Positions 49,382 to 64,000 of a DNA stretch of 64,000 bases are shown here, in pieces. The first letter of the stretch is position 1. The number at the start of each line of letters is the position of its first letter. The notes beneath the pieces are model-generated. The model saw nothing but the letters and a program-made list of their open reading frames with translations. It searched no databases and had not been told where the DNA came from. Made by a program: the position numbers and the translations under genes. The stretch spans positions 1,824,001 to 1,888,000 of the forward strand of contig OZ239628.1 in assembly GCA_965195345.1 (NCBI GenBank), written 5' to 3'. The stretch comes from an uncultured Thiomicrospira sp. (GTDB lineage Bacteria > Pseudomonadota > Gammaproteobacteria > CAKMZV01).

Positions 49382-52428
<3,047 letters not shown>

Positions 52429-52449
52429 CTTAACTAATCAACTATATTC

Positions 52450-53328
52450 ATGACTACTAATCCCTTTTCAATTAAGTCCCTTCCTTTAACACATCAAGGA
52501 AAAGTGCGCGATATTTATTCCATAGACAATGATAAATTGTTGATGGTTTCTACAGACAGAGTCTCTGCATTTGATGTCATACTGCCCGATTTAATAGAGG
52601 ATAAAGGTGTTGTTCTTACAGATATTTCCAAATTCTGGTTCGATAAAACCAGTGGCATCGTCAACAACCATATTATCAAAGACTTCAATTTACGGAGCGT
52701 TTTAACTGAAGATGAGTATCAACGCGTCCATCGCCATTCAATGGTTGTGCATCGGCTGAAACCTTTGCCTGTAGAAGCTATTGTGCGCGGATATCTAATA
52801 GGATCAGGATGGAAAGAATATTGCCAATCTTCCTCTGTATGCAGCTTGCCTCTACCATCAGGCTTGGAGCAAGCGGAAAAAATGCCTCAACCACTTTATA
52901 CACCTTCTACTAAGGCAGCTGTAGGCGAGCACGATGAAAATATATCGTATGAACGCACTATTGAAATTCTCGGCGAAGCACTAGCTGATAAAATTCGAAG
53001 CATCAGTTTGAAGCTTTATGAAAGTGCTGCTGAGTATGCTTTGATGAGAGGAATTATCATCGCGGACACTAAGTTTGAATTTGGATTAGACCAGAACAAT
53101 GAAATCACCTTGATGGATGAAGCACTTACTCCAGACTCTTCTCGCTTCTGGGATATAAAAACTTACAAAACTGGAACGTCGCCTGAAAGTTTTGACAAGC
53201 AAATAATACGCGATTATCTGGAAACGCTTGATTGGGACAAAACGAACCCTGGACCTAGTCTTCCAAAACCAATCGTACAGCGCGCTCAATCACGCTATTC
53301 TGAAATCAAGGAAATTCTTACCAGTTAA
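52450..53328 (+). CDS. purC: SAICAR synthetase
   Basis: GKVRDIY, DRVSAFD, VRGYLIGSGW, TPSTKA, ADTKFEFG, DEALTPDSSRFW. Confidence 0.97.
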   Translation: MTTNPFSIKSLPLTHQGKVRDIYSIDNDKLLMVSTDRVSAFDVILPDLIEDKGVVLTDISKFWFDKTSGIVNNHIIKDFNLRSVLTEDEYQRVHRHSMVVHRLKPLPVEAIVRGYLIGSGWKEYCQSSSVCSLPLPSGLEQAEKMPQPLYTPSTKAAVGEHDENISYERTIEILGEALADKIRSISLKLYESAAEYALMRGIIIADTKFEFGLDQNNEITLMDEALTPDSSRFWDIKTYKTGTSPESFDKQIIRDYLETLDWDKTNPGPSLPKPIVQRAQSRYSEIKEILTS

Positions 53329-53459
53329 CTCCAAATAATCCTTATATTTTTCAAAAACATTGTAAATTTAAAAACTTATTTATAGCATAGTGTATACTAA
53401 TTGCATTAATACAGTTTTTTATCGGACAAAGCATTTAGATTAAACTTTAGGGAGAAATC

Positions 53460-54566
53460 ATGACAGAAGCTACAAAAAAAATGGATCGTAGATCGTTTAT
53501 CAAATCAACAGGAGTGGCTGCTATTGCCGCAACGGGCATCGCAGCTCCAACAATTGCCACAGCAAAAACCACACGTTTAAAAATGGTCACATCTTGGCCA
53601 AAAAACTTCCCCGGACTGGGCACAGCTGCTGCACGTTTTGCCAAGCGCATTGAAGAAGCTTCTGATGGTCGATACAAAATTCGCGTCTACGCAGGCAATG
53701 AATTAGTGCATCCTCTTAAGTGTTTAGATGCTGTTCAAGAAGGTACTGCCGAACTTTACCACTCTGCAGATTATTACTATAAAGGAAAAACTCCTGCTTT
53801 TGCATTCTATTCTGCCGTTCCTTTTGGCTTTACAGCGACCGAAATGGATGCTTGGATACATCATGGTGGTGGACAACAACTGTGGGATGAGTTGAGTGCG
53901 GATTTTGGAGTGAAGCCTTTTCCATGTTCAAATACTGGCGTTCAAATGGGTGGGTGGTTCAAAAAACCAATAACCTCTCTCGCCGACCTAAAAGGGCTGA
54001 AAATGCGTATGCCTGGACTGGGTGGAGATGTATTGAATGCCTTAGGTGGTAACGCCATTACATTGGGTGGCTCTGAAATTATGCCTGCTCTTCAAGCTGG
54101 AACAATTGATGCGACGGAGTGGGTTGGTCCGTGGAACGATCTTGCTTTTGGCTTCTACAAAGTAGTTAAAAATTACATGTACCCTGGATTTCATGAGCCA
54201 GGAACTACTTTGTCGCTCGGTATTAGTCGTAAGTTTTGGGATAAATTATCTAAGGCAGACCAAGCTATGTTTACCGCTTGCGCTTATGCCGAAAACAACT
54301 ACGGCTACGCTGAATTCACTGCCCACAATGGCCGCGCACTTGAAACACTTGTTAAAAAACATGGCGTTAATGTTTTTGAAATGCCTGACGATGTGTTCAA
54401 AGCGATTGGTGCCGCTTCAGCTGACGTATTGTCAAGCGCGGGTAAGAAAGATGCGATTTCTGGTAAGGTCTATAATAGTTTCCTCAAGTTCCATCGTGAT
54501 GTTACGAATTGGACTGCCTTAGCCGATCAAGCTTATGCAAACAAACGTTCTTTATATAGACTTTAA
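53460..54566 (+). CDS. dctP: TRAP transporter substrate-binding protein (TakP/SmoM-like, Tat signal)
   Basis: DRRSFIK Tat motif, MVTSWPK, NTGVQMGGWF, RMPGLGG, EWVGP, YPGFHEP. Confidence 0.92.
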   Translation: MTEATKKMDRRSFIKSTGVAAIAATGIAAPTIATAKTTRLKMVTSWPKNFPGLGTAAARFAKRIEEASDGRYKIRVYAGNELVHPLKCLDAVQEGTAELYHSADYYYKGKTPAFAFYSAVPFGFTATEMDAWIHHGGGQQLWDELSADFGVKPFPCSNTGVQMGGWFKKPITSLADLKGLKMRMPGLGGDVLNALGGNAITLGGSEIMPALQAGTIDATEWVGPWNDLAFGFYKVVKNYMYPGFHEPGTTLSLGISRKFWDKLSKADQAMFTACAYAENNYGYAEFTAHNGRALETLVKKHGVNVFEMPDDVFKAIGAASADVLSSAGKKDAISGKVYNSFLKFHRDVTNWTALADQAYANKRSLYRL

Positions 54567-54578
54567 TTATTTCTTGGT

Positions 54579-54603
54579 AAGGGGCGTAGTCTAAACGCCC
54601 CTT
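54579..54603. terminator. Intercistronic hairpin between dctP and dctQ
   Basis: aaggggcgt-agtctaa-acgcccctt: perfect 9-bp stem with no clear U-tract (mRNA stabiliser or partial terminator). Confidence 0.6.
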
Positions 54604-54612
54604 CCATTCACC

Positions 54613-55341
54613 ATGAACCTATTAAATTTATGGGAGTCGGTTTCTACACTCCCAATAACAGTTTCCGTTGCTGTCTTTTTTCTTGTCTTATTTCTGACAG
54701 TAGTTTTAGTAGGTCTGCCTATTTATTTTTTTGCCAAATCAGAAATCCCAGACTTAATCGCTCATTTTCGATCAATTCACACACACCGTCCAGAAAAATA
54801 CGCTGGATGGATTAAAGTAAGTTTATTTTTAGACCTTGTTAATAGGTTCTGCGGGCAATCGGTTGCTTGGCTAGCCCTAATCATGGTCTTAACTCAATTT
54901 TCTGTTGTTATATTACGTTACGTTTTCTCTTGGGGATCGGTGCAAATGCAGGAGTCTATCTGGTATATGCATGGATTAATATTTACCCTTGCCGTAGGGT
55001 ACACCTTACTTCGAGAAGGGCATGTACGCATTGATCTGTTCTATCGAACGACAAGCGATAAAGTTAAGTCTTGGATCAATATCATTGGCGTTCTCGTGTT
55101 TATTTTCCCCGTATGTTGGATAACCTTTAATATTGCCCTCCCGTATGTCAGCAATGCTTGGGCAGTAAGAGAAGGTTCGACTGAAGGCACTGGACTACAT
55201 TTTGTTTACTTGCTTAAAACGAGCATCCTGTTTTTTTCAGCCTTGCTTGCTCTTCAAGGCACTTCATTGTTGATTAAATCTTCTTTGATACTAAATGGCC
55301 TTGATGATGATCGTTTACTTAATTTTTCAGGTAAACGTTAA
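54613..55341 (+). CDS. dctQ: TRAP transporter small permease
   Basis: VVILRYVF, QESIWY, GHVRIDLFY, REGS. Confidence 0.9.
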   Translation: MNLLNLWESVSTLPITVSVAVFFLVLFLTVVLVGLPIYFFAKSEIPDLIAHFRSIHTHRPEKYAGWIKVSLFLDLVNRFCGQSVAWLALIMVLTQFSVVILRYVFSWGSVQMQESIWYMHGLIFTLAVGYTLLREGHVRIDLFYRTTSDKVKSWINIIGVLVFIFPVCWITFNIALPYVSNAWAVREGSTEGTGLHFVYLLKTSILFFSALLALQGTSLLIKSSLILNGLDDDRLLNFSGKR

Positions 55342-56954
55342 TGGATTGGATTGCTTCGCCTGAATTTCTTTCTCTGCTAATGGTTACAGGAACCTGTTTG
55401 TTCTTATTAATGGGTTTTCCAGTTTCACTAACCCTTGCAGGAAGCTCTTTATTGTTTGCCTTTTTAGGCGTTTATTTTGATGTTTTCGACTTTAGTTTCA
55501 TCTCAGCATTTCCTCAGAGAATTTTTTCGATTATCCGTAATGAAGTATTAGTTGCAGTACCCCTTTTTATATTTATGGGGGTAACTCTTGAACGTTCAAA
55601 AATTGCCGAAGATTTGCTTTCTAACATTGGAAAATTATTTGGATCTTTGCCCGGTGGGCTCGGTTATGCTGTGTTTTTAGTAGGCGCGCTAATGGCAGCT
55701 TCCACAGGCATAGTAGGAGCTACCGTTGTTACTATGGGACTACTTTCTCTACCCGTTATGCTACGCAATGGTTACAACCCCGCTCTAGCGTGTGGAAGCA
55801 TATGCGCTTCTGGCACGCTTGGACAAGTCATTCCGCCATCTATTGTACTTGTACTGCTTGGAGATCAGCTATCCACTGCATACCAACAAGCGCAATATGA
55901 ATTAGGGAACTTTTCTCCAGACACTGTATCTGTTAACGATCTCTTTGCAGGTGCACTAATACCAGGACTATGCTTAGTTGCACTATATATGCTCTATATT
56001 GCATGGACAACCATTCGAAACCCGCACAAAGCACCTCCTCTTCCAACTGTCGATGGAAAAACTGTAAAACTGGATCAAGAAATCTTAAAATCATTATTGC
56101 CTCCAATTATTTTAATAATTGCTGTTTTAGGTTCTATTTTGGGAGGACTTGCATCCCCAACAGAATCTGCATCCGTTGGTGCCGTTGGTGCTTTAATGCT
56201 GGCTGGATATCGTCTTAATCAAAAAAATCGTAAACCAATATTGATGGCATTAATTGCTTTCATAATTATGCTAACGCTCACTTACTTTGTTGATTTGCGT
56301 ATGCAACGCAAAGTTATTTCTCTTCATGAATGGCTTCTGATAGGAATAGCATTACTTTGTGCTCTTGTAATGATATGGGGCATATTTTTATCGGTTATCC
56401 ATTGTTACCGTCAAAAATTTCAAGACCAATCCGTTCTGGTTTATATAGTTCGAGAAACGACCACTTACTCAACAATGGTGTTCACTATTTTGATAGGTGC
56501 TTCTATGTTCTCCTTGGTATTTCGTGGCTATGGTGGTGATGAGATAGTTGAGGAGTTTCTCTCCGCTTTACCTGGAGGGACAATTACTGTTTTTTTGGTC
56601 ATTATGTTAACTATGTTTTTATTAGGATTCATTCTTGATTTCCTTGAAATTGTTTTTATCGTTGTGCCTATCGTGGCTCCTATACTGCTTACGATGGAGA
56701 TTGCACCAGGGGTGACCATTCATCCTGTTTGGCTTGGTGTCATGATGGCTATTAACTTACAAACATCTTTTTTAACGCCGCCTTTTGGATTTTCATTATT
56801 TTATTTACGCGGTGTAGCACCCAAAATAATACAGACCTCTGACATTTACAAAGGCGTTATTCCTTTTGTGTTCATTCAGTTACTCATGTTGCTCATTCTG
56901 TGGTTCTTTCCTTCTTTAGCCACATGGCTACCTGATGTCATTTACAGTCAATAA
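55341..56954 (+). CDS. dctM: TRAP transporter large permease
   Basis: AVPLFIFMG, ASTGIVGA, GTLGQVIPPS, PTES, NLQTSFLTPPFG. Confidence 0.94.
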   Translation: MDWIASPEFLSLLMVTGTCLFLLMGFPVSLTLAGSSLLFAFLGVYFDVFDFSFISAFPQRIFSIIRNEVLVAVPLFIFMGVTLERSKIAEDLLSNIGKLFGSLPGGLGYAVFLVGALMAASTGIVGATVVTMGLLSLPVMLRNGYNPALACGSICASGTLGQVIPPSIVLVLLGDQLSTAYQQAQYELGNFSPDTVSVNDLFAGALIPGLCLVALYMLYIAWTTIRNPHKAPPLPTVDGKTVKLDQEILKSLLPPIILIIAVLGSILGGLASPTESASVGAVGALMLAGYRLNQKNRKPILMALIAFIIMLTLTYFVDLRMQRKVISLHEWLLIGIALLCALVMIWGIFLSVIHCYRQKFQDQSVLVYIVRETTTYSTMVFTILIGASMFSLVFRGYGGDEIVEEFLSALPGGTITVFLVIMLTMFLLGFILDFLEIVFIVVPIVAPILLTMEIAPGVTIHPVWLGVMMAINLQTSFLTPPFGFSLFYLRGVAPKIIQTSDIYKGVIPFVFIQLLMLLILWFFPSLATWLPDVIYSQ

Positions 56955-56973
56955 CTCCTTAATTCTTTAGAGT

Positions 56974-57885
56974 GTGAGCATTAATCTACGCTCAAGACCC
57001 ATGCAGTTAGCGATAGCTGGTTTAGTTGCAACTAATTTTTTTTGGGCTTTAAACGCTGTTCTAGCACGCTTTTTTCGTGATGACATCGGCGCTTTTGACC
57101 TTAATTTCCTCCGTTGGTTTTTTGCATTACTAATACTCACTCCATTTACGCTAAAGCACGTGAAAAAAGACTGGGCTCTGATTAGAGCCAATTTGGCGAA
57201 ATTATTGGTTTTTGGACTATTAGGCGTTAGCTTTTTCAATTTTGCTCTTTATCAATCAGCGCATACTACTTTGGCTGTCAACATTGGATTATTCAATTCA
57301 CTGGCGCCTATTTTTACTTTACTGCTCGCTATCCCTATTCTAAAAACCAAACCAAACTTGATGGTTTGGTTTGGTGTGACAGTGACATTTACAGGCGCTC
57401 TTTTAATCATTTTTAAATTCAACTGGCTTAATCTGATCAACTTCAAAGTCTATCAAGGTGATTTTTTGATGTTAAGTGCTTGTTTTGTTTGGGGTTTATA
57501 TACCGTTTTATTAAAAAAATGGCCTATCAACATACATCCTTTGAGTCTGCTTTGGATAACCATAGCTCTTGGGCTTATCGTTCTATTCGCTATTTTATTT
57601 TTAATAGACACTCCCAATCCCTCACCATTTAATGCTTTGAACGCCACCACTGTACCACTTGTTTTGTACACATCGGTGTTCCCAGCATTATTAGCCTATC
57701 TTTTCTGGTCAAACGGTGTGGCAAAAATAGGAGCGCCTTTATCTTCAGTTTTTTTATATCTCAACCCTTGCTTTATTGCAATCATTGGACTTTATGTTCT
57801 TCAAGAATCTTTAGAATGGTTCCATGTTTTAGGGGGAGGGCTTATACTTGCCGGACTTCTAATTAATTTTAAATATCATAAATAA
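56974..57885 (+). CDS. DMT/EamA-family transporter
   Basis: About 10 TM segments in two EamA repeats; FWALN, LRWFFA, GDFLML, YLNP. Confidence 0.88.
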   Translation: MSINLRSRPMQLAIAGLVATNFFWALNAVLARFFRDDIGAFDLNFLRWFFALLILTPFTLKHVKKDWALIRANLAKLLVFGLLGVSFFNFALYQSAHTTLAVNIGLFNSLAPIFTLLLAIPILKTKPNLMVWFGVTVTFTGALLIIFKFNWLNLINFKVYQGDFLMLSACFVWGLYTVLLKKWPINIHPLSLLWITIALGLIVLFAILFLIDTPNPSPFNALNATTVPLVLYTSVFPALLAYLFWSNGVAKIGAPLSSVFLYLNPCFIAIIGLYVLQESLEWFHVLGGGLILAGLLINFKYHK

Positions 57886-57942
57886 AAAAAATTATTATTC
57901 CAGTGTGAAATGACTAAACTTTGCGTATTATCTTTATACGAC

Positions 57943-58040
57943 TTGAAAATTTTCAATTAAAAAATGATATATCATCGATATGACTTTGTTTTTTTGAAAA
58001 TTTTTCTCGCATTTGACATAAAATTAACCTTTAGTAGCTT
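57943..58040 (+). promoter_or_regulatory. Candidate pepA promoter (TTGACA-N16-TAGCTT) with two upstream perfect palindromes
   Basis: TTGAAAATTTTCAA at 57943-57956, ATGATATATCAT at 57964-57975, TTGACA at 58013-58018, TAGCTT at 58035-58040. Confidence 0.45.
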
Positions 58041-58098
58041 CATAAGAGCTTACTATCGGATCGTTTAGATTAACACTTCTTTACACTTTAGGAAAATC

Positions 58099-59880
58099 AT
58101 GCATCCATTAATCAATCTTGTTAATAATTCACCTGTATCACTTAGCTTGCTAACTAAAAACTATTTAAGTACCCGTTGTGATTGCATTATCATCGGAGTA
58201 TATGAAGATTTAAGCATTATAGGAAATGCTTTTTCAAATGCTCTTGAACAAAAGAAAGCGCCTCTATTAAGCTTTTTAAATCGCAATTCTGGATTTAAAG
58301 CGAAAGTAGGTACTTCACTACTGTGGCAAAAACCAAGTTTCCTTTTTACTCAACGCTTATTAATCGTTGGTCTCGGGGCAGAAAAAGAACTCTCACAAGC
58401 CGATTTTATTAAAGTACAGCAAACGATCTCTGCTACTATTCATGAAAACAGATGGGATAACAGCATCAATGCAACAACGGTCATTCCTGTAAAACATCTC
58501 AACGAACTTTGGAAGTTGCGCACATGTGCGATAGAGCATACAAAAGCATTTTACAATTACTTGTGTCCACTTAAAGAAACAAAAGCTCCTCAAATACGAA
58601 ACATTCAGCTTGTACTTCCTAAAAATCCTCAAAAACTTCATCTTTACAATGAAGTACTTAAAACAGGCGTGGCCATCGGAAATGGCATAAATGTGGCAAA
58701 ACAACTTGGCAATACACCTGCCAACTTATGTACCCCTACAGTTCTTAAAGATTTTGCTTTATCGCTTGAGAAAAAAAGCAAACATTTAAAAGTGCATATT
58801 CATGACAAAAATGCACTTGGAAAATTGGACATGAATGCTTTTTTATCGGTTTCTGAAGGTTCATCTCAACCACCATTTCTCATTGAGATACACTATACTC
58901 CTGAAAAGGATTGTGGTTTAAATCCAGTTGTCTTAGTTGGTAAAGGTGTCACTTTTGATACCGGTGGCATTTCATTAAAACCTTCTGCTGGCATGGATGA
59001 AATGAAATTTGATATGTCTGGTGCAGGCAGTGTTTTTGGTGCTATGAATGCTTTTGAAAGCATGGAAATTAATCGCAAAGTAATTGCTTTGATTCCTGCT
59101 ACGGAAAATATGCCCGCACACAATGCCACAAAACCTGGGGATGTTGTTAAGAGCGCATCTGGTCAAACTATCGAAATTCTCAACACAGACGCTGAAGGTC
59201 GTTTGATTTTATGTGATACCTTATCCTATGCGCACCGATTTAGTCCAGAGAGCATTATTGATGTTGCCACCCTTACTGGAGCTTGCGTGGTTGCTTTAGG
59301 CGCGCATTATAGTGGACTCATGAGCAATGATGAAAGCCTCGCATCTTCGTTGTACGATGCTGGACAACTATCGCATGATCGCTGCTGGCAACTACCTTTA
59401 GATCAGGACTATGATGATCAGCTTAAAAGCAATTTTGCCGACATTGCGAACATTAGTTCAGGTCGAGGAGCCGGCACTATTACAGCTGGTTGCTTTCTCC
59501 AACGTTTCATCAACGATGTCCCGTGGGCGCATCTTGATGTTGCAGGCACTGCTTGGTTAACTGGGGATAAAAAAGGCTCCACAGGTCGCCCAGTTGCATT
59601 ACTGTGCGAATACGTAATAGCCAGTAGTAAATTTCTTCCTCCCTCCTCAACCAAATCAACCTCTGTAGACTCCGAAAAAAATAGATTGCCCACTCGAGGC
59701 GTTATCGGTCCAATTATTGAAGATGGATTGTTAAAGGGATTGAGCAGTCAGGCTATTATTGCTAATGTTTTGGAAAAAGCGCCCGCTGCGCGTACCAAAT
59801 CAACAACCATTGCTTTCTACGCGCACAGACTGCGTAAAAATAACGTTCAATTACCTCCCAGACCTCGTAAGCACATATAG
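58099..59880 (+). CDS. pepA: Leucyl aminopeptidase PepA (M17) with extra C-terminal domain
   Basis: VGKGVTFDTGG, MKFDM, NTDAEGRL, ATLTGA, WAHLDVAG, GRPV, followed by ~85 additional residues. Confidence 0.93.
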   Translation: MHPLINLVNNSPVSLSLLTKNYLSTRCDCIIIGVYEDLSIIGNAFSNALEQKKAPLLSFLNRNSGFKAKVGTSLLWQKPSFLFTQRLLIVGLGAEKELSQADFIKVQQTISATIHENRWDNSINATTVIPVKHLNELWKLRTCAIEHTKAFYNYLCPLKETKAPQIRNIQLVLPKNPQKLHLYNEVLKTGVAIGNGINVAKQLGNTPANLCTPTVLKDFALSLEKKSKHLKVHIHDKNALGKLDMNAFLSVSEGSSQPPFLIEIHYTPEKDCGLNPVVLVGKGVTFDTGGISLKPSAGMDEMKFDMSGAGSVFGAMNAFESMEINRKVIALIPATENMPAHNATKPGDVVKSASGQTIEILNTDAEGRLILCDTLSYAHRFSPESIIDVATLTGACVVALGAHYSGLMSNDESLASSLYDAGQLSHDRCWQLPLDQDYDDQLKSNFADIANISSGRGAGTITAGCFLQRFINDVPWAHLDVAGTAWLTGDKKGSTGRPVALLCEYVIASSKFLPPSSTKSTSVDSEKNRLPTRGVIGPIIEDGLLKGLSSQAIIANVLEKAPAARTKSTTIAFYAHRLRKNNVQLPPRPRKHI

Positions 59881-59947
59881 TTTTTAAAGCGCATAAATAA
59901 AGATGACTCTTAGTGATAGTTTTATGAAAAAAAAACGTTTCCCTCAT

Positions 59948-60910
59948 ATGTCAAAACTACTTCTATCGTTGACTTTTTTCTCAACTTTAGCAATAGCAGA
60001 TGTGCGTGTTGAAGCGTTCGGTAACCTAAAGTCATACCCAACGCATTCCCTAGCTTCAAAAGTTATCGCTTTGAGAGAAAGTAATATAGGTTCACTCATC
60101 AATGCAAATGTTATTGAAATAAACGCCCACGAAGGCGATGAGATCAAAAAAGGGACTTGGTTAATTAAACTGGATTGTTTCAACTCAAAGATACAATTTG
60201 ATCAAAGAAAATCTGCATATGAACTCAACGAATTGAATCTTTCTTGGGATAAAAAAGAGCTAACCAGAATGGAAAATTTAGTGAAGAAAAAACATCTAGC
60301 TCAAGCTGCTTTAGACTCTAAACAAAGACAGTTAGAATCTAAAGTCGTTGAACAAAAACTTCTAAAAATCAATCTTCGACAGGCTCAAAAAGAAGTGGAC
60401 CGTTGCACTCTATACGCCCCTTATGATAGTACTGTTATCAAACGTCACGCAAATCTTGGTGAATTTGCCACTGCAGGGAAAACCTTAGTAACATTACTCG
60501 ATACTAAAAACACACTCGTTGAAACAGAGGTCCCCTTAAGTTTAATTGAGGATTTCAAAAATGCTTCTTCGCACTGGCTACAAAATGGCGAAAAACGTGT
60601 TAACTTAACCATTAAAACTATGCTGCCCCAAGCCAATCTCAAGAACAATAGTCGAACAGTCCGACTAACAGCGGATGAAGCGTTACTTATTGGCGAGCAA
60701 AGTCGGATTTGGTGGACATCAAACACACCTCGCATCGATGGCAAGTACTTGCATCGATATGATGGAGATCTCGGTATTTGGGTAGAGTCAGACGAGGATT
60801 ATCGTTTCATTCCCCTACCTACGGCACAAGAGGGGCGTAATTTTGATATTCAATTAGATGATGCGATAAATATTGTTACTAGAAACGTTCATTTAATCAC
60901 CAAACATTAG
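59948..60910 (+). CDS. Efflux RND periplasmic adaptor (membrane fusion protein), orphan
   Basis: Signal-like N-terminus; lipoyl half-motifs EGDEIKKG and LYAPYDSTV...GE flank a coiled-coil hairpin. Confidence 0.8.
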   Translation: MSKLLLSLTFFSTLAIADVRVEAFGNLKSYPTHSLASKVIALRESNIGSLINANVIEINAHEGDEIKKGTWLIKLDCFNSKIQFDQRKSAYELNELNLSWDKKELTRMENLVKKKHLAQAALDSKQRQLESKVVEQKLLKINLRQAQKEVDRCTLYAPYDSTVIKRHANLGEFATAGKTLVTLLDTKNTLVETEVPLSLIEDFKNASSHWLQNGEKRVNLTIKTMLPQANLKNNSRTVRLTADEALLIGEQSRIWWTSNTPRIDGKYLHRYDGDLGIWVESDEDYRFIPLPTAQEGRNFDIQLDDAINIVTRNVHLITKH

Positions 60911-61640: not shown

Positions 61641-64000
61641 TTACTCGCTGTCTGAAAATACTTCTTGAACAGCCTTTTCAGCCTCTTTGGATAAAGGAGC
61701 TTTGCTTTCTAAAGTATTTTCTGTGAAAACGTTTTCAATATTTTCTTCATTAGCTGAGATAGTTGAGTCTCCAAGAATGTCATGTAACTCTTCATCTATC
61801 TTATCAACCGCACTATATCCCGCCATGTCTTCCATGAGAAGCCCTTTTCCTTTTCTGCGAGCTTGTGTTTGGTGATGACGCAAACCAGTACCAGACGGAA
61901 TTAAACGACCTACGATAACGTTTTCTTTGAGACCGATCAGTTTATCACGCTTACCAAAAACAGCAGCATCAGTTAATACTTTGGTAGTTTCTTGGAATGA
62001 AGCCGCTGAAATAAAGGACTCTGTAGCCAAAGACGCCTTAGTAATACCTAATAGGATACGATCAAATTTAATGGGCTGTTTTCCTTCAGCAATCAAGCTT
62101 TCATTCATTTGAAGAGCACGATGGTAATCGACTTGTTCTCCTTGAACCAAGAAAGCATCACCTGGATCAGCCACTTCAACTTTACGTAGCATTTGGCGAA
62201 TGATAACTTCAATATGTAAGTCGTTAATTTTAACGCCTTGTAAGCGGTAAACACTTTGCACTTCATCAATGATGTAATTAGCAAGTGGTTCGACTCCTTT
62301 AACACGCAAAATATCATGAGGATTAGGTGCACCATCAACTAATACTTCGCCTTTTTCAACATGCTCCCCTTCGAAAACATTGATTTGTCTCCATTTTGGT
62401 ATCAATATCTCAACCGAATTGTTTTTTAAATCCGTAATAATCAATCGATACTTTCCTTTAGTCTCTTTCCCAAAAGAAACCAGTCCGCTAATTTCAGCAA
62501 GAACGGAGGGTTCTTTAGGAATACGCGCTTCGAACAAATCTGCAACTCGTGGCAGACCGCCGGTAATATCTCTTGTTTTTGATGATGCTTGTGGAATCTT
62601 AGCCAAAATTGTTCCAGCTCCAACAGCATCTCCATCTTTGACGTTTACGAGAGCGCCACCTGATAAATAGTAGCTGACAGGCGTTTTTGTTCCAGTGAAG
62701 GTAACATCTTTTCCTTTTTTATCAATCAGTTTAATCATTGGGCGATTATCCTTCGCCCCTGCATCAACACTTTTATCTACAATGATCGATGTCAATCCTG
62801 TTATCTCGTCAGTGCTTGTATCAATTGTCTGACCTTCGATGAAATTAACAAACTTCACAGTACCGCCCATTTCTGTAATCATCGGGTGGGTATGCGGATC
62901 CCATTCAGCAACAATGTCACCAGTTTTAACTTTACCACCATCTTTGACGTTTAATTGAGTGCCGTAAGCTAATTTATAATGTTCGCGCTGTCTCCCTTGC
63001 TTATCATGAACAAATAGTTCAGCTGAACGAGAGATATTCAATAAATCGCCATTTTGATTTTTAATAACTCGATGATTTTTGAGCGTTACTTTTCCGTTAT
63101 TGTTAACAGAAATTTCCCTCTCAGCTGCTGCACGAGATGCTGCTCCGCCTATGTGGAAAGTTCTCATAGTCAACTGAGTACCCGGCTCACCAATGGACTG
63201 AGCAGCGATAATACCCACTGCTTCGCCAATATTAACCAATTTTCCTCGCGACAAATCTCGTCCATAACTATGTCGTGACATGCCAAATTGTGTTGTATCA
63301 GTAATCGGAGAACGTACAAATATTTCATCAACACTGTGTTCATGCAATGCTTCTACTTGTGGCTCATCCAGCAGAACATTTGCCTCAAGTAATATTTCCT
63401 TTGTTCCAGGAATATATACATCTTTCGCCAAAACACGTCCAAGCACACGATCTTTTAGAGGTTCAACAATATCCCCACCACCAATCAAGGCTCCTTTAGC
63501 AATGCCTTCGTCTTTTGAGTATTCGCTTGTAGTTATTACTACATCCTGAGAAACATCTACCAATCGACGTGTTAAATATCCTGAGTTTGCTGTTTTCAAT
63601 GCTGTATCTGCCAAGCCTTTACGAGCACCATGTGTCGAGGTAAAGTATTGCAGTACAGTTAATCCTTCACGGAAATTCGCGGTAATAGGCGTTTCAATGA
63701 TAGAACCGTCTGGCTTCGCCATCAAACCCCTCATTCCAGCAAGCTGTCGCAGCTGAGCCATCGAGCCACGAGCACCTGAATCAGCCATCATATAAATCGA
63801 ATTGAACGATTTAACCTTGTGATGCACACCGCCTTTATCGGTTACATCATCAAACTCGATGATACCGATCATAGCTTTGGTTACTTTCTCATTAGTATGC
63901 GTCCAAATATCGATAACCTTGTTATATCGTTCTCCTTCAGTAAGCAAGCCACTTTGGAACTGCTTGTCCACTTCTTTTACTTGTTCTTCTGCTTGTTCGA
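61641..64000 (-). CDS. rpoC: DNA-directed RNA polymerase beta' subunit (5'-truncated by window)
   Basis: SGARGS, bridge helix [26 protein letters not shown], trigger loop [43 protein letters not shown]. Frame is open to the window edge. Confidence 0.99.

What the first reader, a model, noticed from the sequence alone, without database searches (positions are those of the whole stretch)
63267..63521. RNA polymerase beta' has lost all four cysteine ligands of its C-terminal zinc site
Seen (codons checked in the DNA): [15 protein letters not shown] and [21 protein letters not shown]. Known: the E. coli equivalents are QDLVVTEDDCGTHEG and [21 protein letters not shown], where C814, C888, C895 and C898 bind a structural Zn important for beta' folding and RNAP assembly and are very widely conserved in bacteria. 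Here they are Tyr (63519-63521), Asp (63297-63299), Ser (63276-63278) and Ser (63267-63269), while the flanking bridge helix and trigger loop are intact. Four separate substitutions argue against sequencing error. Tgt and SoxD keep their Zn motifs, so the loss is specific. Inference: a zinc-free version of this RNAP module, stabilised by H-bonds or packing, analogous to Cys-minus ribosomal proteins; it could reflect zinc-sparing or oxidative adaptation, or be a lineage marker.
Basis: partly seen in the sequence, partly recalled or inferred. Interest (0 to 1): 0.85.

Follow-up and report, generated by a model that had tools for sequence, protein, structure and literature searches.

The report
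RNA polymerase missing one zinc site
The only RNA polymerase beta-prime gene of this small gammaproteobacterium, and of every known member of its small order, has replaced all four cysteines of a normally conserved structural zinc site, alongside zinc-free forms of two ribosomal proteins and DksA, so the lineage seems to run its core machinery on less zinc.

Summary
rpoC (minus strand, 61641 to beyond 64000) is intact, 1438 aa and single-copy. It reads Tyr/Asp/Ser/Ser where E. coli beta' has C814/C888/C895/C898. The N-terminal zinc ribbon is kept. Assembled contigs from two samples agree at these codons.

All 5 species of the organism's GTDB order share the loss: ligand 1 varies (Y/F/I/G), and ligands 2-4 are always Asp, Ser, Ser, with an invariant Arg after ligand 3. 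About 300 other proteobacterial beta' sequences keep all four Cys.

The loss is not isolated. All 5 genomes carry only Cys-free L31, only the Cys-poor L36 type, and only a DksA2-like DksA. ClpX, DnaJ and Tgt zinc motifs remain. The clade's RpoC sits on the longest branch of the tree.

The loss is also not unique. 120 of 120 Phycisphaerae-type (Planctomycetota) beta' sequences lack ligands 2-4, with Ser-or-Thr/Ser/Asp instead.

Best reading: a functional zinc-free variant of the module, probably part of a reduced zinc quota. No paper reporting this was found. Interest is moderate to high.

The parts
61641..64000 (-). C-terminal 785 codons of rpoC (beta' subunit). The gene continues beyond the window end, and the full ORF is 1438 aa.
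   Evidence: ORF listing. Full ORF recovered from the genome. Pfam PF04997/PF00623/PF04983/PF05000/PF04998 listed for P0003. Single copy.
63519..63521 (-). Codon at zinc-ligand position 1 (E. coli C814): TAC, Tyr. It varies within the order (Y, Y, F, I, G).
   Evidence: Numbering from the ungapped PDB match.
63300..63518 (-). The ~73-residue beta-rich subdomain that the zinc site normally clamps shut. It is retained at full length.
   Evidence: Alignment. The AlphaFold2 model gives pLDDT 88-96 for residues 51-110, with the same secondary-structure elements as the Cys-bearing control.
63297..63299 (-). Codon at ligand position 2 (E. coli C888): GAT, Asp. It is GAT in all 5 order members.
63276..63278 (-). 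Codon at ligand position 3 (E. coli C895): TCA, Ser. It is TCN in all 5 order members.
63273..63275 (-). Arg codon (CGA) directly after ligand 3. Arg is invariant in the 5 order members, while outgroups mostly have Ala or Ser here. It is a candidate salt-bridge partner of the new Asp (inference).
63267..63269 (-). Codon at ligand position 4 (E. coli C898): AGT, Ser. It is AGT in all 5 order members.

Best explanation
This is the working beta' subunit of the organism's only RNA polymerase. The second, C-terminal structural zinc site (a Cys4 clamp that ties residue ~814 to residues ~888-898 across a ~73-residue subdomain) has been replaced by a metal-free arrangement.

Shown:
- All four thiol ligands are gone, and there is no Cys anywhere in the 170-residue region.
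- The replacement arose once, in the ancestor of a small gammaproteobacterial order.
- Since then Asp (ligand 2), Ser (ligand 3), the following Arg, and Ser (ligand 4) have stayed invariant across deep divergence.

Inferred:
- The Asp/Ser/Ser hydroxyl-carboxylate cluster, an Asp-Arg salt bridge and a mostly hydrophobic residue at ligand 1 hold the two strands together in place of Zn(Cys)4. RNAP would then carry one zinc (the N-terminal ribbon) instead of two.
- The change is part of a lineage-wide cut in zinc demand. The same five genomes have only zinc-free forms of L31, L36 and DksA, the classic zinc-sparing substitutes, here as the sole copies. Whether low zinc selected for it, or it was fixed by drift during a burst of RpoC evolution, is not settled.
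For: Gene integrity and copy number:
- Intact 1438-aa ORF with the catalytic motif and the N-terminal Cys4 ribbon.
- One rpoC in a 99.7%-complete single-contig genome.
- The ligand codons are confirmed in contigs of two samples.

Distribution:
- 5 of 5 species of the order lack the Cys, and the order holds only these 5 genomes.
- CCCC is found in 23 of 23 class relatives of other families with a match, in 117 of the 120 best hits in a 5.8-billion-protein database, where the other 3 are this clade, in 80 of 80 named proteobacterial genome loci, and in 76 of 77 further hits.
- A profile of the clade's motif gives 76.6-85.5 bits for clade members and at most 48.8 bits for the others among 343 matching genomes of 400 class genomes scored. 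The 9 best non-clade loci are all CCCC.

Constraint on the replacements:
- Asp, Ser, Arg and Ser are invariant, with codons GAT, TCN, CGN and AGT in all 5.
- Within-clade RpoC distances are 0.47-0.53 substitutions per site.

Fold:
- AlphaFold2 gives the same secondary-structure elements as for a Cys-bearing relative, with pLDDT 88-96 across the clamped subdomain.
- The best Foldseek matches are E. coli and Pseudomonas beta'.

Zinc economy:
- The only L31 is Cys-free in 5 of 5 order members, against 3 of 25 outgroups.
- The only L36 is the Cys-poor type in 5 of 5, against 1 of 24 outgroups.
- The only DksA is DksA2-like (CTCE, CTCA or CSSA) in 5 of 5, against a DksA2-like best hit in 5 of 24 outgroup genomes.
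- The DksA2 pattern and its zinc-sparing role are described in PMC11672702 (passages read).
- A zinc shortfall drives RpoC into inclusion bodies in Cupriavidus (PMC12632275, passages read). This shows the site matters where it exists.
Against: - No metal content, structure or activity data exist for this enzyme, so 'zinc-free' is inferred from the loss of ligands only.
- AlphaFold2 confidence is lower at the ligand-bearing stretches than in the Cys control: 77 against 93 for residues 41-50, and 81 against 90 for residues 121-130. The alignment behind both models is 64 of 69 Cys-bearing sequences, so the models say little about local geometry.
- Ligand 1 is not conserved (Y/F/I/G), so a defined four-residue substitute site is not supported.
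- The clade's RpoC sits on the longest branch of the tree (0.49 against a median of 0.017). It differs at 79 positions that are at least 95% conserved in 108 relatives. The loss may therefore be one of many relaxed or drift changes.
- All five genomes represent one evolutionary event per trait, so the co-occurrence with L31, L36 and DksA cannot be tested statistically.
- One outgroup (G020) has Cys-free L31, Cys-poor L36 and a DksA2-like DksA, yet keeps CCCC in beta'.
- FolE2-only is common among outgroups and is not distinctive: FolE-IA was found in 8 of 26 outgroups and FolE2 in 19 of 26.
- The genome still encodes a Zur-like regulator and a ZnuA/AztC-family binding protein and many other Cys4 sites. 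It is not a zinc-free organism.
Confidence: 0.7

Rival explanations
1. Neutral or relaxed degeneration. The site was lost by drift during a period of accelerated RpoC evolution (small population, reduced genome), after other substitutions had made the clamp dispensable. There is no link to zinc supply, and the co-occurring zinc-free L31, L36 and DksA are independent lineage-specific losses of the recurrent kind known for zinc ribbons.
For: - The clade stem is the longest branch in the RpoC tree, and 79 clade-specific changes hit otherwise conserved positions, including another Cys (C607 to Ser).
- Ligand 1 is free to vary.
- Genomes are small, 1.8-2.1 Mb.
- Zinc-free L31 or DksA2-like proteins also occur in outgroups that keep the beta' site.
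- FolE2-only is widespread.
Against: - Asp, Ser, Arg and Ser are invariant down to codon family across within-clade distances of about 0.5 substitutions per site. That indicates purifying selection on the replacements.
- Four zinc sites of the most abundant zinc proteins went the same way in one lineage.
- A second lineage converged on the same Ser/Ser/Asp residue set.
Confidence: 0.3
2. Redox adaptation. Zn(Cys)4 sites are oxidant-sensitive, so the lineage removed exposed thiolate clusters from core machinery to resist oxidative or chlorine stress, not to save zinc.
For: - Every site lost (beta' site 2, L31, L36, DksA) is a Cys-rich zinc cluster.
- The review passages read describe redox sensitivity of the DksA thiols.
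Against: - Proteome Cys content is ordinary, 1.10% in 1161 ORFs of at least 200 aa.
- The beta' N-terminal Cys4 ribbon, the ClpX Cys4, four DnaJ CxxCxGxG motifs, the Tgt site and a TraR-like C4 protein are all kept.
- According to the same review, two-Cys DksA2 is more oxidant-reactive than zinc DksA, not less.
Confidence: 0.1
3. The site still binds a metal through other ligands, for example Asp plus nearby His or other residues, or a different cation.
For: An Asp replaces ligand 2, and G000 has a His between ligands 3 and 4.
Against: - That His is Tyr or Leu in two of the five genomes.
- There is no Cys in the whole 170-residue region (one search prints 0 for G000).
- Ligand 1 is Gly in one member.
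- Ser hydroxyls are poor zinc ligands (general knowledge).
Confidence: 0.05
4. Artefact: a sequencing or assembly error, a pseudogene, or a silent duplicate.
For: None found. The only gap is that no RNA run was listed for this sequence.
Against: - The ORF is full-length with no stops and is single-copy.
- The codons are identical in contigs of two samples.
- The same replacements occur in four other species and in two further database proteins.
Confidence: 0.01

Closest known systems
Canonical bacterial beta' second zinc site (E. coli C814/C888/C895/C898; Markov et al. 1999, recalled, paper not held)
   Same: Same gene, same position between the bridge helix and the trigger loop, same length of clamped subdomain, and same flanking motifs (VRSP.T.., [16 protein letters not shown]).
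   Different: All four thiol ligands are replaced (Y/D/S/S). About 300 other proteobacterial sequences examined keep them.
Zinc-independent (C-minus) paralogues of the Zur regulon: L31B, L36B and DksA2
   Same: A structural Zn(Cys)4 site is replaced by non-ligand residues while the fold and function are kept. These very substitutes are the sole copies in the same five genomes. DksA2 is described in PMC11672702 (passages read).
   Different: Those are usually extra paralogues switched on at low zinc. Here there is one essential gene and no zinc-binding copy. beta' is not mentioned among such substitutes in that review: 'RpoC' occurs 0 times (listing), and only the first 300,000 characters are held.
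Phycisphaerae-type (Planctomycetota) beta', found here
   Same: An independent loss of the same site with the same residue set. Ligands 2-4 are Ser (114) or Thr (6), Ser (120) and Asp (120) in 120 of 120 sequences. The N-terminal ribbon is kept in the 4 sequences inspected.
   Different: The order of Asp and Ser is permuted (S/S/D against D/S/S). 110 of 120 keep Cys at ligand 1. The 13 Phycisphaerae-type sequences printed carry a Cys just before ligand 3. It is a large, common clade in a different phylum.
Zinc and non-zinc forms of other core proteins (ribosomal protein S4, PMC3087516; GluRS putative zinc-binding domain, PMC4381286). Only titles and abstracts were seen, in the listing.
   Same: Natural variants of information-processing proteins that have dispensed with a structural zinc motif.
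   Different: Different proteins. No RNA polymerase case is described there.
Archaeal and eukaryotic largest RNAP subunits (recalled, not tested here)
   Same: As recalled, the homologous region after the bridge helix folds without this zinc, so a metal-free version of the module has precedent.
   Different: A different domain of life and distant sequence.

Membership tests
Bacterial RNA polymerase beta' (RpoC) | Five Rpb1-type Pfam domains in order | tested here: met
   PF04997, PF00623, PF04983, PF05000 and PF04998 are listed for P0003. PF04998 scores 245 bits in the genome.
Bacterial RNA polymerase beta' (RpoC) | Catalytic NADFDGD motif | tested here: met
   Present at residue 457 of the 1438-aa protein.
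Bacterial RNA polymerase beta' (RpoC) | N-terminal zinc ribbon (CxC...CxxC) | tested here: met
   Cys at 70, 72, 85 and 88. Also kept in P0004 and P0005.
Bacterial RNA polymerase beta' (RpoC) | Conserved bridge-helix and trigger-loop flanks | tested here: met
   Invariant columns Y2...V38 and A149...G169 are shared with 68 relatives.
Bacterial RNA polymerase beta' (RpoC) | Second Cys4 zinc site (E. coli 814/888/895/898) | tested here: not met
   Y/D/S/S. This feature is near-universal rather than defining: it is also missing in 120 of 120 Phycisphaerae-type sequences.
Zinc-sparing C-minus substitutes (Zur-regulon type) | Cys ligands of a structural zinc site replaced while the fold is kept | tested here: met
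   Ligand loss. Predicted fold retention (prediction only).
Zinc-sparing C-minus substitutes (Zur-regulon type) | A zinc-binding paralogue coexists in the genome | tested here: not met
   Only one rpoC is present.
Zinc-sparing C-minus substitutes (Zur-regulon type) | Expression controlled by Zur or by zinc | not tested
   A Zur-like gene exists, but no operator search or expression data were obtained.
DksA2-type DksA (neighbouring finding) | Only the first and third of the four zinc Cys are kept, or fewer | tested here: met
   CTCE, CTCA, CSSA, CSSA and CTCA in the five genomes. The pattern is as described in PMC11672702. The protein passes TIGR02420 dksA (137.5 bits against a cut-off of 115.5).

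The most novel reading that the evidence does not exclude
Loss of the beta' site would be the last step towards a constitutively zinc-minimal gene-expression machinery: ribosome without zinc, DksA without zinc, and RNAP with one zinc instead of two. The same Asp/Ser/Ser solution arose independently in a gammaproteobacterial order and in Phycisphaerae. That would define a portable, metal-free design for a module that E. coli cannot assemble without zinc. It would mean the 'essential' assembly role of this zinc depends on sequence context.
Probability: 0.35. Interest if true: 0.75.

Novelty: new variant of a known kind. Interest (0 to 1): 0.6.

Why it matters
The second beta' zinc site is treated as a fixed structural feature of bacterial RNA polymerase, needed for beta' folding and enzyme assembly. 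Natural, order-wide, zinc-free versions give a direct way to ask what that zinc does. One can swap the ~95-residue module between enzymes and measure assembly, stability and zinc stoichiometry.

RNA polymerase would also join the list of abundant zinc proteins that some bacteria have re-engineered to lower their zinc quota. Here the substitutes for L31, L36 and DksA are the only copies, which suggests a habitat or lifestyle of chronic zinc scarcity.

The convergent Ser/Ser/Asp replacement in Phycisphaerae suggests a general structural solution, not a one-off accident.

Tried and rejected
Naming the organism:
It returned 80 other Proteobacteria and left out the clade.
- Sources give no name to P0004 or P0005.
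- The lineage is therefore known only as a 5-species, 3-genus, 1-family GTDB order of Gammaproteobacteria.

Clade in metagenomes:
- The tool's own patterns from alignment A1 matched 31 stretches in metagenome contigs. None encoded an RpoC relative.
- A narrow-region protein search collected only 81 candidates and did not even recover P0004 or P0005, so it says little.

Expression: no RNA holder was listed. This is not evidence either way.

Structure:
- The tools return no coordinates, so the proposed Asp-Arg and Ser contacts could not be measured.
- Foldseek gave TMq ~0.62 and rmsd ~7.7 A to E. coli beta', because the isolated flanks are poorly modelled.

Breadth outside Proteobacteria:
- It rests only on the 150 best cluster representatives, out of 8750 with E <= 0.001.
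- By script, 137 of the 150 were CCCC.
- 8 more are CCCC by eye, where ligand 1 was misaligned or an insertion intervened (P0294, P0288, P0325, P0322, P0333, P0332, P0292, P0317).
- 4 are frameshift-garbled fragments that I set aside (P0253, P0337, P0297, P0326).
- 1 is a true loss (P0316).
- Other lineages without the site may exist lower in that list.

Genomes without a match:
- In one search, 3 of 26 outgroup genomes gave no RpoC match with this query: G010 (62% complete), G021 and G027.
- In one search, 57 of 400 scored genomes had no match at E <= 0.01, and G251 was not scored. Their ligand status is unknown.
- G043, G144 and G298 are flagged unpublished and enter only the tallies.

Zinc-economy checks that led nowhere:
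- FolE2-only proved common in outgroups.
- The dksA-folE2 neighbourhood is yajC-secD-secF, not a Zur island.

Literature:
- Eight searches ran. They covered E. coli and Thermus residue numbers, RpoC with zinc terms, zinc-independent paralogues, and Planctomycetes.
- None found a paper describing loss of this site.
- Markov et al. 1999 (PMC317019) is not held, and Lane & Darst 2010 was not located.
- PMC11515920, on beta' domain insertions, contains no 'zinc' or 'cysteine'.
- Supplements were not consulted.

Full report
WHAT IS THERE. The minus strand from 61641 to beyond the window end encodes the C-terminal 785 residues of RpoC, the beta' subunit of RNA polymerase. The window lies in a 1,920,693-base single-contig genome that is 99.7% complete and 39.8% G+C. 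From that genome I recovered the whole gene: 1438 codons, no internal stop, NADFDGD at residue 457. A protein search and a Pfam PF04998 search of the genome each find one rpoC.

THE FOUR CODONS. The 170-residue stretch window:63141-63650:- aligns without gaps to residues 771-940 of E. coli beta' chains in the PDB.
- TAC at 63521-63519 (Tyr)
- GAT at 63299-63297 (Asp)
- TCA at 63278-63276 (Ser)
- AGT at 63269-63267 (Ser)
That these E. coli positions are the zinc ligands is recalled from Markov et al. 1999, which could not be read here. In every Cys-bearing relative examined the same columns are Cys. The N-terminal zinc ribbon is intact, with Cys at 70, 72, 85 and 88. Logan contigs of two runs from two samples of one study, one of them probably the source, cover all four codons with no differing letter.

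HOW WIDE IS THE LOSS AMONG RELATIVES.
- The organism's GTDB order holds only five species in one family and three genera. All five lack the four Cys. Ligand 1 is Y, Y, F, I or G. Ligand 2 is always Asp (GAT), ligand 3 always Ser (TCN), ligand 4 always Ser (AGT). The residue after ligand 3 is always Arg, where outgroups mostly have Ala or Ser.
- Of 26 class-level relatives from 26 other families, 23 gave a match and all 23 are CCCC. Three gave no match with this query: G010 (62% complete), G021 and G027.
- Of the 120 best hits in a 5.8-billion-protein database, 117 are CCCC. The other three are this protein and two clade members, P0004 (I/D/S/S) and P0005 (F/D/S/S).
- 80 of 80 named proteobacterial genome loci are CCCC.
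- 76 of 77 further hits are CCCC, and the last has a gap at ligand 1.
- A profile of the clade's 33-residue motif was run over 400 class genomes drawn from about 240 families. It scored 76.6-85.5 bits on the three clade members sampled and at most 48.8 bits on the other 340 genomes with a match. The nine best non-clade loci are CCCC. 57 genomes had no match and one was not scored.
- The clade's motif patterns found no RpoC in 241 million metagenome records.
The loss is therefore an order-level shared derived character of a rare lineage. It is not a sporadic mutation.

NOT UNIQUE IN BACTERIA. I read the four columns in the 150 best representatives of 1.84 billion 50%-identity clusters.
- 145 have the four Cys: 137 by script, and 8 by eye where ligand 1 was misaligned or an insertion intervened.
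- 4 are frameshift-garbled fragments that I set aside.
- 1, P0316 (1471 aa), truly lacks the site (A/S/S/D).
Its 120 closest relatives are labelled Phycisphaerales, Phycisphaeraceae or Planctomycetota where named. All 120 lack ligands 2-4: Ser in 114 or Thr in 6, then Ser in 120, then Asp in 120. Of the 120, 110 keep Cys at ligand 1. The 13 of them printed carry a Cys one residue before ligand 3. The four whose N-termini I inspected keep the N-terminal ribbon. So a second, much larger lineage has independently given up the Cys4 site, and it converged on the same residue set in a different order. Only the top 150 of 8750 significant representatives were inspected, so further cases may exist.

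THE GENOMIC COMPANY THE LOSS KEEPS.
- L31. Pfam searches of the five order genomes and 26 outgroups show that each order genome has one L31 and that it is Cys-free (78 residues in G000). Among 25 outgroups read, 22 have the four-Cys form and 3 the Cys-free form: G005, G020 and G025.
- L36. Each order genome has one L36 of the longer type, lacking the CxxC pair. Among outgroups, 23 of 24 have the CxxC...C...H form, and only G020 does not.
- DksA. Each order genome has one DksA, and its four zinc positions read CTCE, CTCA, CSSA, CSSA and CTCA. In outgroups the best hits are CCCC in 19 genomes and DksA2-like in 5: G027, G016, G010, G025 and G020. The G000 protein passes NCBI's dksA model. Keeping only the first and third Cys is the DksA2 pattern, and a 2024 review describes it as a zinc-sparing paralogue of the Zur regulon (PMC11672702, passages read).
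- What is kept. G000 retains the ClpX Cys4 motif, all four DnaJ CxxCxGxG motifs, the Tgt CxCxxC...H site, a TraR-like C4 protein, rpoZ, a Zur-like regulator (best NCBIfam hit Zur, below cut-off) and a ZnuA/AztC-family binding protein.
- Cysteine content of 1161 long ORFs is 1.10%.
- FolE. FolE2 without FolE-IA is found in G000. FolE-IA was found in none of the five order genomes and FolE2 in four of them. The pattern is just as common in outgroups: FolE-IA in 8 of 26 and FolE2 in 19 of 26. I do not count it.

HOW IT MOST LIKELY WORKS.
Shown:
- The thiol ligands are absent, and no Cys remains in the 170-residue region (one search prints 0).
- The ~73-residue subdomain between ligand 1 and ligands 2-4 is retained at full length.
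- Asp, Ser, Arg and Ser have stayed invariant while the clade's RpoC diverged by 0.47-0.53 substitutions per site. That is close to the mean distance (0.57) among the other gammaproteobacterial sequences in the tree.
Predicted:
- AlphaFold2 gives the same strands and helices for the G000 segment as for a Cys-bearing relative. pLDDT is 88-96 over residues 51-110.
- Confidence is lower at the ligand-bearing stretches: 77 against 93 for residues 41-50, and 81 against 90 for residues 121-130.
- The best structural matches are E. coli and Pseudomonas beta'.
- Both models lean on an alignment that is 64 of 69 Cys-bearing. No coordinates are returned, so local geometry is untested.
Inferred:
- A carboxylate-hydroxyl cluster (Asp, Ser, Ser), an Asp-Arg salt bridge and a mostly bulky residue at ligand 1 replace Zn(Cys)4. 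RNAP would then carry one zinc instead of two.
- Where the site exists it matters. In Cupriavidus a zinc-import defect sends RpoC into inclusion bodies (PMC12632275, passages read).

WHY IT HAPPENED. Two readings remain open.
- Reduced zinc quota. The four zinc sites lost are those of the cell's most abundant zinc proteins. For three of them the zinc-free form is a known low-zinc substitute, and here it is the sole copy.
- Drift. The clade's RpoC stem is the longest branch of the tree, 0.49 against a median of 0.017. 79 positions that are at least 95% conserved in 108 relatives are changed in the clade, including another Cys. Ligand 1 is unconstrained. One outgroup (G020) has all three zinc-free companions yet keeps the beta' site.
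All five genomes are one event per trait, so no statistical association can be claimed. An oxidative-stress rationale is weak, because Cys content is ordinary and many Cys4 sites are retained.

COMPARISON WITH WHAT IS KNOWN. The protein is a member of the bacterial beta' family by every feature tested except this zinc site. It works like the C-minus substitutes of the Zur regulon, but it is not one of them: there is no zinc-binding paralogue, and regulation is untested. Eight full-text searches found no description of a beta' without this site. The metallostasis review does not mention RpoC among zinc-sparing cases (listing; only the first half of its text is held). Two key subscription-era papers could not be read, so prior mention in them cannot be excluded. 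Zinc and non-zinc forms are documented for ribosomal protein S4 and for GluRS (abstracts seen).

VERDICT. The loss is not 'specific', since three other abundant zinc sites went too. It is also not unique, since Phycisphaerae lack the site. I rate it a new variant of a known kind, with moderate to high interest (0.6).

Noticed in passing
G000:C1:60329-60562 (outside the window); L140-L142, L145 in relatives: The only L31 gene of all five order genomes is the long, Cys-free type. 22 of 25 outgroups read have the four-Cys type.
   Followed up: yes
G000:C1:418926-419045 (outside the window); L167, L168, L171, L173: The only L36 gene of all five order genomes is the longer type without the CxxC pair. 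In G000 it lies far from rpoC, while in G016 the CxxC-type L36 lies about 17 kb from rpoC. 23 of 24 outgroups have the CxxC...C...H type.
   Followed up: yes
G000:C1:1640376-1640819 (outside the window); L176-L179: The only DksA of all five order genomes is DksA2-like (CTCE, CTCA or CSSA at the four zinc positions). In G004 the match includes one in-frame TAA, which I did not examine.
   Followed up: partly
P0316 and P0350-P0468 (protein database): 120 of 120 Phycisphaerae-type (Planctomycetota) beta' sequences lack ligands 2-4 of the same zinc site (Ser or Thr, Ser, Asp). 110 of 120 keep Cys at ligand 1. The N-terminal ribbon is kept in the four inspected. I found no paper on this.
   Followed up: partly
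whole rpoC (P0003, P0004, P0005): The clade's RpoC sits on the longest branch of a 111-sequence tree. It differs at 79 positions that are at least 95% conserved in 108 relatives, including a second conserved Cys (position 607, now Ser).
   Followed up: partly
window 51319-60910, plus strand: Downstream of rpoC there is no str operon. The genes are tgt, purC (SAICAR synthetase), a TRAP transporter (DctP/Q/M), an EamA transporter, an M17 aminopeptidase and a HlyD-family adaptor, all on the opposite strand.
   Followed up: no
P0253, P0297, P0326, P0337 (cluster representatives): Four short RpoC 'representatives' have Arg/Pro/Ser-rich junk in the middle of an otherwise conserved region. They look like frameshifted gene calls from high-GC metagenome contigs and could mislead automated column counts.
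   Followed up: no
G000:C1:1355250-1355336 (outside the window): A second, 115-codon TraR/DksA-family ORF keeps a full CxxC...CxxC zinc finger, although the main DksA has lost its own.
   Followed up: no
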